Shown here: positions 25,765-29,645 of the stretch, piece after piece
How the letters are laid out: each line of letters opens with the position of its first letter
Numbering within the stretch: the stretch's first letter is position 1
From: Patescibacteria group bacterium
Lineage (GTDB): Bacteria; Patescibacteriota; Patescibacteriia; CAIXNZ01
Reading direction: 5' to 3'
NCBI GenBank assembly: GCA_028714455.1
Contig: JAQTMG010000001.1
Coordinates: forward strand, 568 to 64,567
DNA: 64,000 nt
The notes under the pieces: generated by a model
Told to the model about the DNA's origin: nothing
What the model saw: only the letters and a program-made list of their open reading frames with translations
Database searches by the model: none
Position numbers and translations under genes: made by a program

Positions 25765-25987
25765 AAGCGTAGAAACAGTACGGCGACTCGTGCCCATCTA
25801 AACACGAGGAAAGGGTTCGACTCCCTTTGACTGGCTTTACAAGGAGCTTTTATCTGCCGAGAATAGTTGGGAGGCAATGAATCCCGGTTTTCGGACTGGG
25901 TGGAGCCGAATCTGGAATACCAACCGGATAAAAGACCTTGGCAAGTTCTGCGCTAGGGGGAGAGTGCCACAACCTCTCCCTTTTTTC
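25765..25987 (+). ncRNA. candidate ~220-nt structured ncRNA (identity unresolved; short RNase P / tmRNA-like motifs)
   Basis: 630-bp gap without ORFs; promoter upstream; strong terminator GGGGAGAG-N9-CTCTCCC plus T6 at 25957-25987; hairpin GTTTCTA...TAGAAAC; motifs CGAGGAAAGGGTTCGACTCCC (cf. RNase P CR-I GAGGAAAG; tRNA-like T-arm) and GAATCCCGGTTTTCGG (cf. RNase P P4 3' strand GAACCCGGCTTATCGG). Confidence 0.4.
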
Positions 25988-25999
25988 TTTTCTAAAAAT

Positions 26000-26028
26000 T
26001 TGTCAAAATTGCTTAAGTGTCGTAAAAT
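26000..26028 (+). promoter_or_regulatory. promoter TTGTCA-N17-TAAAAT upstream of xerC/D
   Basis: Hexamer spacing 17. Confidence 0.4.
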
Positions 26029-26062
26029 AATGACTATAAGATAATAAGAGCTACAAGAGCTA

Positions 26063-26150
26063 AATGCCCATAGGCCTAAATGTTTCTCTCGGCCTATTAG
26101 CCTATAGTTCTTCTAGTCGTATAGCTCTTATAGCTCCTATATAACAAAGA
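26063..26150. repeat. degenerate AGAGCT / TAGCTC repeat block in xer 5' leader
   Basis: aagagctacaagagctaaatgcccataggcct...tatagctcttatagctcctat; related to heptamer family. Confidence 0.4.
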
Positions 26151-26156
26151 GTTTAA

Positions 26157-27101
26157 ATGGAAAAATCAAAGTTACAAAATTTAATCCGCGAGTTTCTCGA
26201 ATATCTCGAGATCGAAAAAGGCCGTTCCCGGATGACCATCAGAAATTATGAATTTTATTTACTGCGTTTTTTAACTTGGTCAAATTTTAAAAATCCAGAA
26301 CAAATCACCAGCGACACGGTGCGCAATTATCGGCTCTGGTTAAATCGCCAGAAAGATTCGACTGGACAATTTTTAAAGAAAAATACGCAAAACTATCACT
26401 TAATCGCCTTGCGCGCCTTTTTAAAATATCTGGCTAAGCGCGATATTAAGACTTTGCCGCCGGAAAAAATTGAATTAGCCAAAATGCCAGACCGCCAGAT
26501 TGAATTTTTAGAAGGTTTTGATTTGGAAAACTTTATGGAAGCGCCAATGAAAGTTGAAGAACCGGAAATAATAAGATTGCGTGACAAATCAATTTTAGAA
26601 ACCTTGTTTTCAACCGGACTTCGTGTGTCAGAACTTTCCAATTTAAAAAAAGAGGTTGTTAATTTAAATAAAGATGAATTCACGGTCCGCGGCAAGGGTT
26701 CAAAGCTGCGCGTTGTTTTTCTTTCCAACCAAGCTAAATATTGGCTGAAAAAATATCTGGAAGCGCGAAAAGACATGTCGCAATTTCTATTTACCAATCA
26801 CGACAAAGCCGGTAACAAAAGAAATAAAAAGGGTGATGACAAACCTTTGACGCCGCGCAGTATTCAAAGAATCGTGGAAAAATATGCCAAGGTCGCGGGC
26901 ATCACCAAAAAAATCACGCCCCATGTCCTGCGACATTCTTTTGCCACTGATTTATTAATCAACGGCGCGGATATTCGTTCTGTCCAATCAATGCTGGGCC
27001 ATTCCAGCATCACCACGACTCAAATTTATACGCACATTACAGACAGGCAACTACGCGAAGTGTATAAAAATTTTCACGGCAAGAGAAGAAGAAAGGAATA
27101 A
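26157..27101 (+). CDS. xerC: tyrosine recombinase XerC/XerD family
   Basis: N-terminal core-binding domain; C-terminal RHSFATDLLINGADIRSVQSMLGHSSITTTQIYTHI with catalytic Y. Confidence 0.85.
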   Translation: MEKSKLQNLIREFLEYLEIEKGRSRMTIRNYEFYLLRFLTWSNFKNPEQITSDTVRNYRLWLNRQKDSTGQFLKKNTQNYHLIALRAFLKYLAKRDIKTLPPEKIELAKMPDRQIEFLEGFDLENFMEAPMKVEEPEIIRLRDKSILETLFSTGLRVSELSNLKKEVVNLNKDEFTVRGKGSKLRVVFLSNQAKYWLKKYLEARKDMSQFLFTNHDKAGNKRNKKGDDKPLTPRSIQRIVEKYAKVAGITKKITPHVLRHSFATDLLINGADIRSVQSMLGHSSITTTQIYTHITDRQLREVYKNFHGKRRRKE

Positions 27102-27149
27102 TACAATCTATCACATAATACAGACCGTACCCTGGGGTGCGGTTTTTTA

Positions 27150-27191
27150 AAAAAGAAAAACCCCTCACCTTTTCTTTGAAAAGGTGAGGGG
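27150..27191 (-). terminator. terminator of the short RFLAIRK paralog (minus strand)
   Basis: cccctcacctttt-N5-aaaaggtgagggg followed by T-run on minus strand. Confidence 0.55.
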
Positions 27192-27207
27192 TAAGTGTTC
27201 AAATACC

Positions 27208-27456
27208 TTACTTGCGAATGGCCAGGAACCGCCAACTGCCAAGCCACTTACTGTCAACATTGTTCCAGTAGAGGTTGAGCTTGCGCTTGCCATCATTGAA
27301 GACCAGGCACGGACAGTTACGATTGCCGTTGTCATTGACCCAGACCGAGCCGAGATTATACAGAATACCGCCAAAGCCACTGCCCATTGAGTACTCTCTG
27401 GACTGTATTTTATGCGGGAGCATCCTCCCTTGATATTCTGTACCAAGTATTTTCAT
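27208..27456 (-). CDS. short paralog (83 aa; possible pseudogene/remnant) of the C-terminal Cys/Trp-rich domain, ...WRFLAIRK
   Basis: GSVWVNDNGNRNCPCLVFNDGKRKLNLYWNNVDSKWLGSWRFLAIRK aligns with C-terminus of 27682..28296; GC-rich; own extended -10 promoter and ~150-nt leader. Confidence 0.45.
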   Translation of the reverse strand: MKILGTEYQGRMLPHKIQSREYSMGSGFGGILYNLGSVWVNDNGNRNCPCLVFNDGKRKLNLYWNNVDSKWLGSWRFLAIRK

Positions 27457-27581
27457 TTTTAGAAATACCAAATGTATGCTAAGCCAAGACGTGTCCTGAC
27501 CTATTCTAACGAATTTAGTATTCTAGATTTCAACCGCCCAAAGCCGTGACCGTGGGCTGATTCGTTTACTATCCATAAAAA

Positions 27582-27626
27582 ATTATAGCACAAAAAAAAC
27601 ACCGCGCAGATATTATCCACGCGGTG
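27582..27626 (-). promoter_or_regulatory. terminator of upstream paralog (caccgcg-N13-cgcggtg + T8) overlapping extended -10 TGcTATAAT
   Basis: Seen on minus strand between the two paralogs. Confidence 0.45.
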
Positions 27627-27681
27627 ATATGATTTGCAAGTGTCCAAGTGCCAAGAGCTCAAGGTTCCAAGAATCCAAGAA

Positions 27682-28296
27682 CTACTTGCGGACGGCCAAG
27701 AAACGGCAACAGGCACCCCAATGACCGTCACCACCGAACCAATAGAGGAAGAGCTTGCGCTCGCCATCAGTGAAGTTCAGGTACGGACAGCTACGATTGC
27801 CGAAGGCATCGACCCAGACCGAGCCGAGAGCGACGATCGGAAACTCCCGTTGAACATCCGGGTTGGCCGCTCCAAAGGCGAGCAGGTGTTCAATGCTAGC
27901 CGGCTTAAGACCCAGACCGTCAAGATGCGCCAGCGCTTCTTTGGTCGTAGCGTCTTTGTTGAGATGAACCAGAACCAATTCGGCTTCTTGCTGACCGACG
28001 CCCTGGACAGGAAAGTGCTTGTCGCTGATGTCGTCATTGACCCAGGCATATTTGCCGAGCTTGATCATCTCGGTGAGCGTCTTGCCGTAGTCCACGACCA
28101 CTCTGTAGGTGTCGCTGGCTTTTTGCCGGCCGAACATGATCAGTTCGGCAACCTGCTTGACCAACTTGCTGTCAGTGAGCAGGCGGTGCAGATCGTCGTC
28201 GCCGCCGCCCAATTCCAGGACGGCATTTGTGATCGCTTGCATTATGGACCACATTTTGCCGGCGGCCTTCAAAAACTCGCTTTTCTTTCTTGCCAT
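27682..28296 (-). CDS. hypothetical protein (204 aa) with C-terminal Cys/Trp-rich domain ...HWGACCRFLAVRK, GC-rich
   Basis: Strong SD aaaggaggatttgacaATG; the mirror-image plus-strand ORF 27634..28323 lacks ATG/SD and is rejected. Confidence 0.6.
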   Translation of the reverse strand: MARKKSEFLKAAGKMWSIMQAITNAVLELGGGDDDLHRLLTDSKLVKQVAELIMFGRQKASDTYRVVVDYGKTLTEMIKLGKYAWVNDDISDKHFPVQGVGQQEAELVLVHLNKDATTKEALAHLDGLGLKPASIEHLLAFGAANPDVQREFPIVALGSVWVDAFGNRSCPYLNFTDGERKLFLYWFGGDGHWGACCRFLAVRK

Positions 28297-28532
28297 TGTC
28301 AAATCCTCCTTTGTCGCGCTTAGCGACTCCAGTGGCTTGCCCCTTGCTTTGACTTTCAAGGCCTAAGGCTTGCCAAGTATGCTTTCATACTATCATACTT
28401 TTATAATTTTGTCAATGATAACGATTCAAAAATTAGCTAATATTAAATAAATAAATTTTTTAGCTATCTTTAGACAATAAATCCAGGCAAAGTTGACTAA
28501 GACCAAAATTTTTGCTAAACTATATTATAATA

Positions 28533-28567
28533 TAGCTCTGGGCTCGGAGCTTTGAGCTTAGAGCTTT
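28533..28567. repeat. tandem heptamer array (TAGCTCT GGGCTCG GAGCTTT GAGCTTA GAGCTTT)
   Basis: 7-nt period. Confidence 0.6.
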
Positions 28568-28650
28568 TTAAATAAAACATTCTAAAATTGTTCCGAAGGG
28601 ATGCCTTTGGCATAAATTGTAAATTGAGAATTGTAAATTGTTTCAGACTC

Positions 28651-28729
28651 CGTAGTTTCCGCCAGAGGCGGACCACGAATCGAGCTTTGCTCTGGTTCGT
28701 GGCAATGGATATCAAAAAATTAACACCTG
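28651..28729 (+). repeat. tRNA-Arg-associated leader element, copy A (identical to copy B at 60670-60752)
   Basis: CCGTAGTT + TCCGCCAGAGGCGGA hairpin + CCACGAA-N16-TTCGTGG hairpin + CAATGGATA (tRNA D-loop sequence) + TCAAAAAATTAACACCT, directly abutting tRNA-Arg 5' end. Confidence 0.7.
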
Positions 28730-28801
28730 TCCTCGTAGTTCAATGGATAGAACAAGAGCCTTCTAAGCTCTGGATTGGGGTTCGATTCCTCACGGGGACA
28801 T
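28730..28801 (+). tRNA. tRNA-Arg (anticodon UCU), no encoded CCA
   Basis: Acceptor GTCCTCG/CGGGGAC, D-arm GTTC-AATGGATA-GAAC, anticodon arm AGAGC-CTTCTAA-GCTCT, T-arm TGGGG-TTCGATT-CCTCA. Confidence 0.85.
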
Positions 28802-28906
28802 CAGTGGTTCTCGGCCAAAGGCTGATCCGCCTCTGGCGGAGATTCCTGGCGGGGTCATAAGGAGATTCGAGTTTCGTGCAAGAGCAAGAGAAATAAAAAT
28901 AAAAAT

Positions 28907-29251
28907 ATGTTTGATTTTGAAAAACTTGAAGTTTATAAAAAAGCCAAAAATATAAATGTTGAAATTTCGGAATTTTTAAAATCTGCAAATGTAGATATTT
29001 TCCTGAATAATCAGTTGAAAAGAGCTTCGTTAAGCATATTATTGAATATTGCGGAAGGTAGCGGTAGATCAACAAAAAGAGATAAAAGAAATTTTTTTGT
29101 CATTGCTCGCGGTTCGGTCTTTGAGTGCACTTCAATTTTTGATCTATTATTCACAGAGAAAGAAATTGAAATTGAAAAATATAATTATTTTTACAATCAG
29201 CTTGAAGAGATTTCAAAAATGCTATACGGTCTAATCAAAACTCATGAATAA
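28907..29251 (+). CDS. four-helix-bundle protein (23S rRNA intervening-sequence / Avd-like family)
   Basis: 114 aa; KLEVYKKA...LKRASLSILLNIAEGSGRSTKRDKRNFFVIARGSVFECTSIFDLL pattern of TIGR02436-type proteins; flanked by inverted GCAAGAG-rich repeats (28883-28895 / 29256-29280). Confidence 0.75.
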   Translation: MFDFEKLEVYKKAKNINVEISEFLKSANVDIFLNNQLKRASLSILLNIAEGSGRSTKRDKRNFFVIARGSVFECTSIFDLLFTEKEIEIEKYNYFYNQLEEISKMLYGLIKTHE

Positions 29252-29288
29252 ACTCTTGCTCGTATCTCTCGTCTCTTGCTGATATCAT

Positions 29289-29360
29289 GGCGGGTATAGT
29301 TTAACGGTAGAACAGCGGGTTGTGGTCCCGTTGGCCTGGGTTCAACTCCCAGTACTCGCC
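29289..29360 (+). tRNA. tRNA-His (anticodon GUG) with encoded G-1, no CCA
   Basis: G-1 pairs with discriminator C73; acceptor GCGGGTA/TACTCGC; anticodon loop TTGTGGT; T-arm CTGGG-TTCAACT-CCCAG. Confidence 0.85.
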
Positions 29361-29444
29361 CTGTACAATTCACCTCTAAGGAAAAAAGAGTCGAATTTCC
29401 GACGGGGATAAAGTTTTGACAATTTAATTCACTTATCAAAAAAC

Positions 29445-29645
29445 ATGAACGGAAAAATCAAAAGATTGACTGATAAAGGTTTTGGCTTCATCGCTTCCGA
29501 TGAAACTCCAGACAAAGATGTCTTCTTCCATTCCAGCGCGCTGGTCGGAGTCGGTTTCGCCGACTTGAGAGAAGGCGACGCCGTGACATTTGACACCGAG
29601 GATTCGGAAAAAGGTCCTCGCGCCGTCAACGTGAAACGCGTCTAA
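29445..29645 (+). CDS. cspA: cold-shock protein (CSD)
   Basis: MNGKIKRLTDKGFGFIASDETPDKDVFFHSSAL (RNP1/RNP2 motifs); terminator cccgtataaatgcggg at 29661-29690. Confidence 0.9.
   Translation: MNGKIKRLTDKGFGFIASDETPDKDVFFHSSALVGVGFADLREGDAVTFDTEDSEKGPRAVNVKRV

What the first reader, a model, noticed from the sequence alone, without database searches (positions are those of the whole stretch)
27150..28360. GC-rich (>50%) paralog pair with Cys/Trp-rich C-terminal RFLA(V/I)RK domain between xerC/D and tRNA-Arg
A 204-aa protein (27682-28296, strong SD) and a downstream 83-aa truncated paralog (27208-27456, own extended -10 promoter and long leader) share GSVWV-x3-GNR-x-CP-x-L-x-F-x-DG-x-RKL-x-LYW-x7-W-x4-RFLA-x-RK. 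Composition is far from the host's, and both mirror-image plus-strand ORFs are open because of the GC bias. The pair sits between a tyrosine recombinase gene and the tRNA-Arg that carries the duplicated leader, the classic layout of a small integrated element, with the short copy possibly a decayed duplicate or a separately expressed C-terminal domain (e.g. immunity/toxin module).
Basis: partly seen in the sequence, partly recalled or inferred. Interest (0 to 1): 0.6.

Follow-up and report, generated by a model that had tools for sequence, protein, structure and literature searches.

The report
DGR variable gene with orphan template
The "paralog pair" is the hypervariable end of a gene and the non-coding template copy that a diversity-generating retroelement (DGR) uses to rewrite it; the system is already known to be common in these tiny bacteria, and in this copy the reverse transcriptase is missing and the template looks like a recombinant relic.

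Summary
A 204-aa minus-strand gene (27682-28296, 56% GC) and a downstream 147-bp copy of its 3' end (27209-27355, 80% identical) exist as described.

They are not protein paralogs. The gene belongs to a very large Patescibacteria family of DGR target proteins with a C-type-lectin-like fold. In 37 of 84 related loci it is followed by a template repeat (TR), an antisense avd gene and a reverse transcriptase (RT). The short copy sits where the TR sits. It lies behind the same promoter and a roughly 225-nt structured leader RNA with strong covariation that has no Rfam match.

The "83-aa ORF" is non-coding. The Cys and Trp residues lie at variable positions. The high GC is a trait of the whole family.

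This locus is anomalous. There is no avd or RT in the 64 kb. Only 17 of 30 repeat mismatches fall on template adenines, against 85-100% in most intact relatives. The copy's 3' part carries a stop codon, flank and terminator of the kind that follows a variable region.

I read it as a TR x VR recombinant: an orphaned, probably inactive DGR cassette. The integrated-element and toxin-immunity ideas are not supported. This is a known kind of system and of modest interest.

The parts
28387..28415 (-). Promoter-like site of the target gene (TTGACA-17-TAGTAT, TG-extended)
   Evidence: Consensus scan. This is a pattern match only.
27682..28296 (-). DGR target (variable protein) gene, 204 aa. It has an N-terminal three-helix segment and a C-type-lectin-like domain (residues about 58-204).
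   Evidence: Identical to NCBI protein PHC97_00170. The family has 8246 representatives at the 50%-identity cluster level. In 37 of 84 loci homologs are followed by avd and RT. AF2 pLDDT is 88 for the full protein and 94.6 for the domain. The only fold matches with TM 0.40-0.48 are C-type lectin-like domains, and they are weak (E >= 0.14). Third-codon-position excess supports the minus frame.
27683..27829 (-). Variable region (VR1), the 3' end of the target gene (residues about 156-204). Variable sites begin at D163.
   Evidence: 147-bp repeat with the short copy. Against the consensus of the four closest canonical TRs, 22 of 28 differences lie at template adenines.
27640..27681 (-). Post-VR flank with CTTGG repeats (TTCTTGGATTCTTGGAACCTTGAGCTCTTGGCACTTGGACACTTG)
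   Evidence: Similar CTTGG-rich flanks follow the VR stop codon in most related loci. Its function was not tested; it may be a target-recognition element.
27600..27626 (-). Hairpin plus T-run after VR1 (CACCGCGTGGATAATATCTGCGCGGTG), the target-gene terminator
   Evidence: Terminator scan. Nearly identical in L003. At the same position other loci have different hairpin sequences followed by a T-run.
27582..27590 (-). Extended -10 element TGCTATAAT, the putative promoter of the template RNA
   Evidence: Read from the sequence. The position and motif are conserved in most of the 27 aligned loci.
27356..27574 (-). Structured 5' leader of the DGR template RNA (8 helices)
   Evidence: Alignment of 25 loci: 50 pairs, 96.4% of cells paired, 41 pairs with changes on both sides, covariation 0.688 against 0.284 in shuffles (0 of 500) and 0.09-0.20 when partners are slid. 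The window copy keeps 49 of 50 pairs and scores 180.7 bits with the family profile. No Rfam match.
27209..27355 (-). Template-repeat-derived copy (the "83/87-aa paralog"). It is non-coding and probably a chimera of a TR 5' part and a VR-type 3' part.
   Evidence: It occupies the TR position behind the conserved leader. Asn-codon-rich. 17 of 30 mismatches to VR1 are at its adenines (p = 3e-5). All 13 non-A mismatches lie 3' of nt 40, and the first 40 nt show 5 of 5 at A. It has lost 11 of 39 canonical TR adenines, all at nt >= 42. It keeps an in-frame TAA stop like a VR.
27150..27208 (-). VR-type 3' flank (TAAGGTATTTGAACACTT), a 15-bp hairpin (27160-27192, ACCCCTCACC...GGTGAGGGGT) and a T-run
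   Evidence: Terminator scan. The hairpin is nearly identical to the one that follows the VR stop codon in L008 and L010, and similar to the post-VR hairpin of RT-linked L006. The motif TCTYTTTATTCTC plus short hairpin that follows most canonical TRs is absent.
26157..27101 (+). Neighbour: xerC/D-type tyrosine recombinase, convergent with the cassette. It occupies the place where avd and RT sit in intact relatives.
   Evidence: Pfam Phage_integrase, E = 2e-43. Syntenic and 83% nt-identical in Falkowbacteria L002.

Best explanation
The locus is a cassette of a Patescibacteria-type (clade 2) diversity-generating retroelement that has lost, or never received, its enzymatic half.

The 204-aa gene encodes a DGR variable protein: a short helical N-terminus and a C-type-lectin-like domain whose last ~45 residues are the variable region (VR).

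The short "paralog" is not a gene. It is the template-repeat position of a separately transcribed non-coding RNA, made up of a promoter, a ~225-nt structured leader, the TR and a hairpin.

In intact relatives, the Avd-RT complex encoded immediately downstream copies this RNA into cDNA, miscopying adenines, and the cDNA replaces the VR. These steps are inferred from the Bordetella phage paradigm and from the adenine-only VR/TR differences seen in the relatives.

In this window avd and RT are absent. The copy's 3' part, stop codon, flank and terminator are of the VR type. It therefore most likely arose by homologous recombination between a TR and a VR, either by gene conversion into this syntenic target locus or by a deletion. 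The cassette is probably no longer able to template mutagenesis, and the target gene is frozen in its last variant unless a DGR elsewhere in the genome acts on it.

The confidence given is for the whole package. For the DGR VR/TR identification alone it is about 0.9, for "orphaned and inactive" about 0.6-0.65, and for the chimera origin about 0.55.
For: Shown:
- Homolog P0016 lies next to bAvd and RVT_1 genes.
- Of 84 loci, 37 have avd on the minus strand and RT on the plus strand directly downstream. All 24 loci that have a TR-like second hit and enough flank carry both; the window is the only exception.
- In those loci typically 85-100% of VR/TR mismatches are at TR adenines, for example 21/21, 25/25 and 21/21 (lowest 12 of 18); the residual non-A ones were not mapped.
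- The window spacer, promoter, leader and TR start are 87% identical to complete DGR L003. A 1-nt indel there breaks the "ORF".
- The leader shows strong covariation.
- The window repeat has 17 of 30 mismatches at A (binomial p = 3e-5). The first 40 nt show 5/5 at A. The 13 non-A mismatches all lie 3' of nt 40, and 7 of them are at sites where all four closest canonical TRs have A.
- The short copy ends with TAA and a flank and hairpin matching post-VR flanks of L008, L010 and L006, instead of the canonical TR 3' motif.
- No RT or Avd was found by tblastn anywhere in the 64 kb.
- The gene is a mosaic. Its 5' end is closest to the syntenic ortholog L002. The stretch 28200-27840 is mostly 93-98% identical to the RT-linked target L006 (a dip to 68-78% around 28080-28020), while housekeeping flanks are only 78-83% identical. 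This points to recombination among cassettes.
- Other decayed cassettes exist: L059, L081, L041 and L055.
- The domain fold is C-type-lectin-like.

From the literature: DGR clade 2 is restricted to Patescibacteria, is cell-encoded, and has targets without recognisable domains (PMC8144416). Flanking RNA envelops RT-Avd in the Bordetella phage DGR (bioRxiv 10.1101/2023.10.23.563531).
Against: - The leader is fully intact: 49 of 50 pairs, and a profile score as high as RT-linked copies. The promoter and a terminator are also present. This fits either a very recent event or continuing selection, meaning use by an RT elsewhere.
- Only 64 kb of a 193-kb contig, in a multi-contig MAG, could be searched, so the absence of RT from the genome is not shown.
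- The chimera model rests on about 60 nt of flank similarity and on a modest statistic: 11 of 39 losses at A sites against 10 of 92 changes at non-A sites (Fisher p = 0.02).
- A partial leader/3'-flank duplex remains (-5.4 kcal/mol, which is background level rather than zero).
- The C-type-lectin assignment has no significant E-value (best 0.14).
Confidence: 0.7

Rival explanations
1. The cassette is still active in trans. An avd-RT pair located elsewhere in the genome uses this local leader-TR RNA, or its own TR, to diversify VR1. The unusual 3' end would then be a tolerated variant.
For: - The leader structure and profile score are indistinguishable from RT-linked copies.
- The promoter and terminator are intact.
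- The adenine bias is significant, and the first 40 nt show only adenine mismatches.
- VR1's own flank and hairpin are of the type seen in complete DGR L003.
- In the related Falkowbacteria MAG one RT-linked cassette coexists with at least three other family members on other contigs.
- Non-adjacent DGR targets are known (PMC5758913).
Against: - 13 of 30 mismatches are not at adenines, whereas most RT-linked relatives have 0-6.
- The canonical motif and covarying duplex partner 3' of the TR are replaced. Duplex energy is at the non-cognate background level.
- Every other TR found is immediately next to avd and RT.
- No RT was found within 27 kb and 36 kb on either side.
- No RT at least 74% identical to L003's comes from this MAG among the database hits shown. 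This is weak evidence, because only 120 hits are listed.
Confidence: 0.17
2. One reading: two protein paralogs, one full-length and one truncated or separately expressed C-terminal domain such as toxin and immunity, carried on a small element integrated between a tyrosine recombinase gene and tRNA-Arg.
For: - An 87-aa ORF is open.
- It has its own promoter.
- GC is far above the window mean.
- A recombinase gene and tRNA genes flank the pair.
Against: - The ORF frame upstream of the repeat is not conserved: an indel and stop codons occur in L003.
- There is no Shine-Dalgarno sequence before either start codon.
- The upstream part is conserved as base-paired RNA.
- Gene order is conserved in Falkowbacteria, with xerC 83% identical.
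- No att-like repeat was found.
- The GC excess is family-wide, in 79 of 81 loci.
- No defence-type or phage family hits: the PHROGs, Pfam and NCBIfam scans were all empty.
Confidence: 0.02
3. The short copy is simply an old TR that decayed by ordinary point mutation after deletion of avd and RT, with no recombination with a VR involved.
For: - Deletion-type decay is seen elsewhere: in L059 and L081 the leader is fused to RT fragments.
- Non-adenine mismatches are what drift would produce.
Against: - Drift should also have hit the adjacent leader, which is intact.
- Changes relative to canonical TRs are enriched about threefold at adenines and are confined to nt >= 42.
- The in-frame stop, flank and hairpin match post-VR sequences of other targets rather than degraded TR flanks.
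Confidence: 0.1
4. The + strand ORF (27634-28323, 229 aa) is the real gene and the minus-strand reading is spurious.
For: The ORF is open over 690 nt.
Against: - Thousands of homologs conserve the minus-frame protein.
- The AF2 model of the minus-frame protein is confident.
- Substitutions between homologs peak at minus-frame codon position 3, which corresponds to + frame position 1 (161/131/323).
- An AGGAGG sits before the minus-strand ATG.
Confidence: 0.01

Closest known systems
Patescibacteria/CPR diversity-generating retroelements (DGR clade 2 of Roux et al. 2021, PMC8144416; the "CPR set" of Wu et al. 2018, PMC5758913)
   Same: - The same target protein family, which in 37 of 84 loci lies next to RT genes 56-100% identical to one another at protein level, and to avd.
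- The VR is at the C-terminus.
- Relatives show adenine-specific VR/TR differences.
- The targets are cellular, small, and lack recognisable Pfam domains.
   Different: - This locus has no avd or RT.
- Its TR-position copy has a VR-type 3' end and many non-adenine mismatches. It is a remnant or orphan, not a complete element.
Bordetella phage BPP-1 DGR (mtd VR, avd, TR, spacer RNA, brt)
   Same: - The logic is the same: a VR at the 3' end of a C-type-lectin-fold gene, a nearby Asn-codon-rich TR, adenine mutagenesis, Avd plus RT, and a hairpin downstream of the VR.
- RNA on both sides of the TR is needed. A duplex between sequences upstream and downstream of the TR is described for many DGRs (bioRxiv 10.1101/2023.10.23.563531) and covaries here.
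   Different: - In these CPR cassettes the TR RNA appears to be its own transcription unit, with promoter, leader, TR and hairpin.
- avd is antisense, between the TR and RT.
- The large structured RNA domain lies 5' of the TR. In BPP-1 a spacer 3' of the TR has this role (the RT-10 motif of PMC5737381).
- There is no sequence or Rfam similarity.
C-type-lectin-fold DGR variable proteins (Mtd, TvpA, archaeal AvpA, TaqVP)
   Same: - The predicted domain has an alpha/beta topology whose only meaningful structural matches are C-type lectin-like domains.
- The variable residues cluster in the C-terminal strands and loops.
   Different: - No sequence-level or significant Foldseek match to any solved DGR variable protein.
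- It would be a divergent sub-type, as Roux et al. anticipated for CPR targets.
Non-adjacent or remote DGR targets and degenerate DGR cassettes
   Same: Family members without a neighbouring RT are common: 47 of 84 loci. Truncated cassettes also occur, namely L041, L055, L059 and L081.
   Different: Here a complete leader plus a TR-like repeat is retained next to the target without the enzymes. No other locus examined showed this configuration.

Membership tests
Diversity-generating retroelement (complete, functional) | A DGR-clade reverse transcriptase encoded near the TR | tested here: not met
   tblastn with the L003 RT found nothing in the 64-kb window. xerC occupies the position where RT and avd lie in 24 of 24 relatives. 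The rest of the genome could not be searched.
Diversity-generating retroelement (complete, functional) | A TR/VR repeat pair whose differences fall (almost) only on TR adenines | tested here: inconclusive
   17 of 30 mismatches are at adenines (p = 3e-5), but 13 are not. The first 40 nt show 5 of 5 at A. Relatives mostly show 85-100% at A.
Diversity-generating retroelement (complete, functional) | An accessory Avd gene | tested here: not met
   No match to the clade's Avd in the window. A PF05635 four-helix-bundle gene at 28907-29251 is only a distant superfamily relative. It is syntenic in a genome whose DGR has its own avd.
Diversity-generating retroelement (complete, functional) | TR-flanking RNA elements: an upstream/downstream duplex and a stem-loop just 3' of the TR | tested here: inconclusive
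   The upstream leader is intact. The canonical 3' motif and hairpin are replaced by VR-type sequence. Duplex energy is -5.4 kcal/mol, against a cognate mean of -7.9 and a non-cognate mean of -5.0.
DGR target (variable) protein family of Patescibacteria | Homology to proteins that sit in complete DGR cassettes with the VR at their C-terminus | tested here: met
   E-values of 1e-104 to 1e-17 to family members. 37 of 84 loci have avd and RT directly downstream. The VR coincides with the last ~49 codons.
DGR target (variable) protein family of Patescibacteria | A C-type-lectin fold carrying the VR | tested here: inconclusive
DGR target (variable) protein family of Patescibacteria | A hairpin and recognition flank downstream of the VR | tested here: met
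   A CTTGG-rich flank and a 12-bp hairpin plus T-run follow VR1 and are nearly identical to those of complete DGR L003. Function is inferred, not tested.
Integrated mobile element (tyrosine integrase plus tRNA attachment site) | Direct repeat of the tRNA 3' end (attL/attR) bounding the insert | tested here: not met
   The only direct repeat of at least 30 nt in 25900-29500 is the VR/TR pair. No copy of the tRNA-Arg end was found.
Integrated mobile element (tyrosine integrase plus tRNA attachment site) | Presence or absence polymorphism relative to related genomes, and a foreign composition specific to this genome | tested here: not met
   The same gene order is present in Falkowbacteria. The GC excess is shared by 79 of 81 family loci. 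Parts of the gene are nevertheless 93-98% identical across species, so the cassette does recombine or transfer, but not through this integrase-tRNA route.
Toxin-immunity or two-gene paralog module | Both ORFs conserved as proteins | tested here: not met
   The short ORF's N-terminal half is leader RNA. Its frame is broken in L003 and it is conserved through compensatory base-pair changes.

The most novel reading that the evidence does not exclude
The ~225-nt leader, the TR and the 3' hairpin form a previously uncatalogued structured RNA class. It would be the autonomous template RNA of Patescibacteria DGRs, with the RT/Avd-binding scaffold placed 5' of the template rather than 3' as in the Bordetella phage.

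The window's perfectly preserved but enzyme-less copy would be maintained because it still works with an avd-RT pair encoded elsewhere. That would make it a DGR whose template is physically unlinked from its reverse transcriptase. Alternatively, TR x VR recombination of this kind could be a regular route by which DGR cassettes spread to new target loci.
Probability: 0.15. Interest if true: 0.6.

Novelty: new member of a known kind. Interest (0 to 1): 0.35.

Why it matters
For genome annotation, this shows how a DGR template repeat can pass for a small "paralogous" ORF. It also shows that the odd GC content, the open mirror ORFs and the Cys/Trp-rich tail are by-products of a hypermutation cassette, not signs of an integrated island.

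For DGR biology, the locus is a natural example of how cassettes fall apart or move. The gene is a mosaic of a resident target and an RT-linked target. The template copy carries a VR-type end. The enzymes are gone while the RNA scaffold is untouched.

The by-product with the most potential value is the strongly covarying leader RNA shared by CPR DGRs. It has no Rfam match. It could guide biochemical work on how these minimal DGRs prime and delimit cDNA synthesis.

Tried and rejected
- Pfam, PHROGs and NCBIfam scans of both ORFs found nothing.
- A profile search of PDB sequences returned only noise (OspC3 and AVR3a4, E > 0.2).
- Rfam found nothing on the leader or repeat, either in the window or in four complete relatives. 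It gave only sub-threshold sRNA/miRNA-like hits on the terminator hairpin.
- A search for RT, Avd, a second target or a second leader in the whole window found none.
- I tried to place the MAG itself. The exact protein look-up returned only a 1.5-kb Logan contig (L004). The MAG is not among the GTDB representatives scanned. The rest of the genome therefore could not be examined.
- I tested whether the Falkowbacteria TR (L006) explains the VRs of that genome's other family members. By eye it does not do so cleanly (about 9 non-adenine differences for L005), so trans-diversification in that relative is not demonstrated.
- I first described L008 and L010 as RT-less. Their contigs end just after the hairpin, so their linkage is unknown.
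- A narrow-window duplex calculation made the window look like the worst case (-1.7 kcal/mol). A wider window gave -5.4, which is background level. I use the more cautious figure.
- The metal-binding or disulfide idea was rejected because the Cys positions are hypervariable.
Full report
**1. What is there**

On the minus strand there is a 204-aa ORF (ATG 28296 to stop 27682-27684, preceded by AGGAGG). About 210 nt downstream lies a second ORF, 27208-27471, of 87 aa from TTG or 83 aa from ATG 27456.

Their C-terminal 51 residues are 57% identical (E = 1e-17). At DNA level this is a 147-bp ungapped direct repeat, 27683-27829 against 27209-27355, with 79.6% identity. It is the only substantial direct repeat in 25900-29500.

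The gene has 55.9% GC in a window of 40.8%. The exact spacing is LYW-x6-W.

**2. The clue from relatives**

The 204-aa protein is identical to an NCBI hypothetical protein of a Patescibacteria MAG. It has many homologs in Falkowbacteria, Buchananbacteria, Komeilibacteria, Parcubacteria and other CPR groups, none with a Pfam domain. A profile search finds 8246 cluster representatives.

The Buchananbacteria homolog P0016 lies directly upstream of a bAvd gene and an RVT_1 gene. Together these identify a diversity-generating retroelement.

A scan of species-representative genomes gave 80 further loci. In 37 of the 84 loci held, a minus-strand avd and a plus-strand RT lie immediately downstream of the target gene. 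In the 24 loci that show a second, C-terminal-only match and have enough flank, the order is always the same: target/VR, a spacer of about 330 nt, the repeat, then antisense avd and RT.

In those loci typically 85-100% of repeat differences (lowest 12 of 18) fall on adenines of the downstream copy, for example 21/21, 25/25 and 21/21. This is the signature of DGR mutagenic retrohoming. The downstream copy is thus the template repeat (TR), and the 3' end of the gene is the variable region (VR).

This matches published descriptions of DGR clade 2, which is restricted to Patescibacteria, is cell-encoded, and has targets lacking recognisable domains (PMC8144416; see also PMC5758913).

**3. The short "paralog" is RNA, not protein**

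From the VR stop codon to the start of the repeat, the window is 87% identical to the complete DGR of L003. Shared features are:
- the CTTGG-rich flank;
- the hairpin CACCGCGTGGATAATATCTGCGCGGTG plus T-run;
- the extended -10 element TGCTATAAT;
- a ~225-nt leader beginning GGATAGTAAAC.

A 1-nt indel in L003 puts stop codons into the frame of the "87-aa ORF". Neither start codon has a Shine-Dalgarno sequence.

Across 25 loci the leader folds into eight helices. Of 50 pairs, 96.4% of cells are paired and 41 pairs show changes on both sides. The covariation score is 0.688, against 0.284 in shuffles (0 of 500) and 0.09-0.20 when partners are slid.

The A-rich stretch just before the conserved ACTTGG pairs with a U-rich motif immediately 3' of the TR. 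This long-range duplex also covaries: cognate mean -7.9 against non-cognate -5.0 kcal/mol, permutation p < 1e-4. It resembles the upstream/downstream duplex described for many DGRs (bioRxiv 10.1101/2023.10.23.563531).

No Rfam family matches the leader in the window or in four complete relatives.

**4. The protein**

AlphaFold2 with the family alignment gives pLDDT 88 for the whole protein and 94.6 (pTM 0.90) for residues 58-204.

Foldseek finds no significant match. The top hits, and the only ones with TM 0.40-0.48 (probability up to 0.80), are C-type lectin-like domains: BDCA2, rhodocetin, NKR-P1B, DCIR, CLEC12A and LOX-1. In the viral library the top hits are UL45 and a poxvirus C-type lectin. 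This fits the rule that DGR VRs sit in C-type-lectin folds, but it is not proof.

The only invariant residues are S159, W193 and R198.

Differences between homologs peak at the third codon position of the minus frame (161/131/323). The 229-aa + strand ORF is therefore an artefact of composition.

**5. What is unusual here**

(a) There is no avd or RT in the 64 kb. A convergent xerC gene lies where they should be.

(b) Only 17 of 30 repeat mismatches are at adenines of the short copy. This is still non-random (p = 3e-5). The first 40 nt show 5/5 at A, whereas the remaining 107 nt show 12 at A and 13 at non-A. Seven of those 13 are at sites where all four closest canonical TRs have A.

(c) Relative to those TRs, the short copy has lost 11 of 39 adenines, all at nt >= 42, against 10 changes at 92 non-A sites (p = 0.019).

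(d) Most canonical TRs end ...CGCAAGT followed by TCTYTTTATTCTC, a 7-11-bp hairpin and a T-run. The window copy instead ends CGCAAG-TAA-GGTATTTGAACACTT, followed by the hairpin ACCCCTCACCTTTTCAAAGAAAAGGTGAGGGG. This is an in-frame stop, flank and terminator of the kind that follows VRs in L008, L010 and L006.

(e) The leader-to-3'-flank duplex is at background strength.

(f) Even so, the leader keeps 49 of 50 pairs and scores as high as RT-linked copies.

**6. Interpretation**

The short copy is best read as a chimera: leader plus TR 5' end joined to a VR-type 3' end, produced by homologous recombination between a TR and a VR.

The target gene itself is a mosaic:
- Its promoter and first ~100 nt are closest to the syntenic Falkowbacteria ortholog L002 (75-90% identity).
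- The stretch 28200-27840 is mostly 93-98% identical to that genome's RT-linked target L006 (a dip to 68-78% around 28080-28020).
- The VR flank and promoter are closest to L003.
- Housekeeping neighbours are only 78-83% identical.

One scenario that fits is gene conversion of a resident, RT-less target locus by a complete cassette, with the right-hand crossover in the TR/VR homology. Deletion of avd and RT between a TR and a downstream VR is an alternative. Both are inferred, not shown.

Deletion-type remnants occur in other genomes, namely L059, L081, L041 and L055. The intact leader argues that the event is recent, or that an RT elsewhere still uses the RNA.

**7.

- The gene order 23S-IVP, target, xerC, S15, NYN, PNPase is conserved in Falkowbacteria.
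- No att-like repeat exists.
- Target genes exceed their flanks in GC in 79 of 81 loci, by 13.5 points on average.
- The integrated-island and toxin-immunity readings are therefore not supported.

**8. Verdict**

This is a known kind of system, a Patescibacteria DGR, present here as an enzyme-less and probably defunct cassette with a recombinant template copy.

My confidence in the DGR VR/TR identification is about 0.9. My confidence in "orphaned and inactive" is about 0.6-0.65, and in the TR x VR chimera origin about 0.55. Interest is modest. The covarying leader RNA is the most reusable by-product.

Noticed in passing
window 27356-27574 (minus strand); L003 5785-6011 and 23 other loci (alignment A3): The ~225-nt leader upstream of the template repeat is a strongly covarying, eight-helix RNA shared by CPR DGRs. 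It is absent from Rfam 15. The A-rich segment before ACTTGG also forms a covarying duplex with the U-rich motif 3' of the TR.
   Followed up: yes
81 loci of the family (for example L001-L013) and window 27682-28296: Target genes of this family are systematically more GC-rich than their genomes: mean 56% against 43%, higher in 79 of 81 loci. The excess covers the non-variable N-terminal two thirds as well. The cause is unexplained; frequent transfer, adenine avoidance or RNA/DNA structural constraints are all possible.
   Followed up: partly
window 28907-29251 (+), between tRNA-Arg 28728-28802 and tRNA-His 29290-29361: A 114-aa PF05635 "23S rRNA intervening sequence" four-helix-bundle protein. 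From my own knowledge, not tested here, this is the superfamily to which DGR Avd proteins belong. It has no similarity to the clade's own Avd. It is 95% nt-identical to the syntenic Falkowbacteria copy, although neighbouring housekeeping genes are only 78-83% identical.
   Followed up: partly
window 28658-28675 and 28823-28840: An 18-nt inverted repeat (TCCGCCAGAGGCGGACCA / TGATCCGCCTCTGGCGGA, 94% complementary) brackets tRNA-Arg(TCT). It could form a long stem enclosing the tRNA precursor.
   Followed up: no
window 27640-27681; the same position in most of 27 loci: Short CTTGG / CCTTGG repeats follow the VR stop codon, before the terminator hairpin, in many CPR DGR targets. They may be a target-recognition (IMH-like) element.
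   Followed up: no
L059 600-1270; L081 4466-4761; L041 4585-4780; L055 4666-4764: Other genomes carry decayed cassettes: a leader fused directly to RT fragments (TR and avd deleted), or leader remnants without RT. DGR erosion appears common in CPR genomes.
   Followed up: partly
L002 1052-1207 (Falkowbacteria P0002): The syntenic ortholog carries an in-frame 78-nt tandem duplication inside the C-type-lectin-like domain (230 aa instead of 204). It has no leader or TR between its stop codon and xerC.
   Followed up: no
L008 and L010 (Falkowbacteria contigs JAFGMD010000024 and JAFGMD010000037): Two different family members share an identical ~100-nt 3' flank and hairpin. Both contigs end just after it, which suggests a repeated downstream sequence that broke the assembly.
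   Followed up: no
record titles of L007, L009, L016, L019 and others: Several MAGs carrying this CPR-specific cassette are titled "uncultured Gammaproteobacteria" or "Candidatus Saccharibacteria". Their gene content looks Patescibacteria-like, so these labels are probably placeholders or mis-assignments.
   Followed up: no
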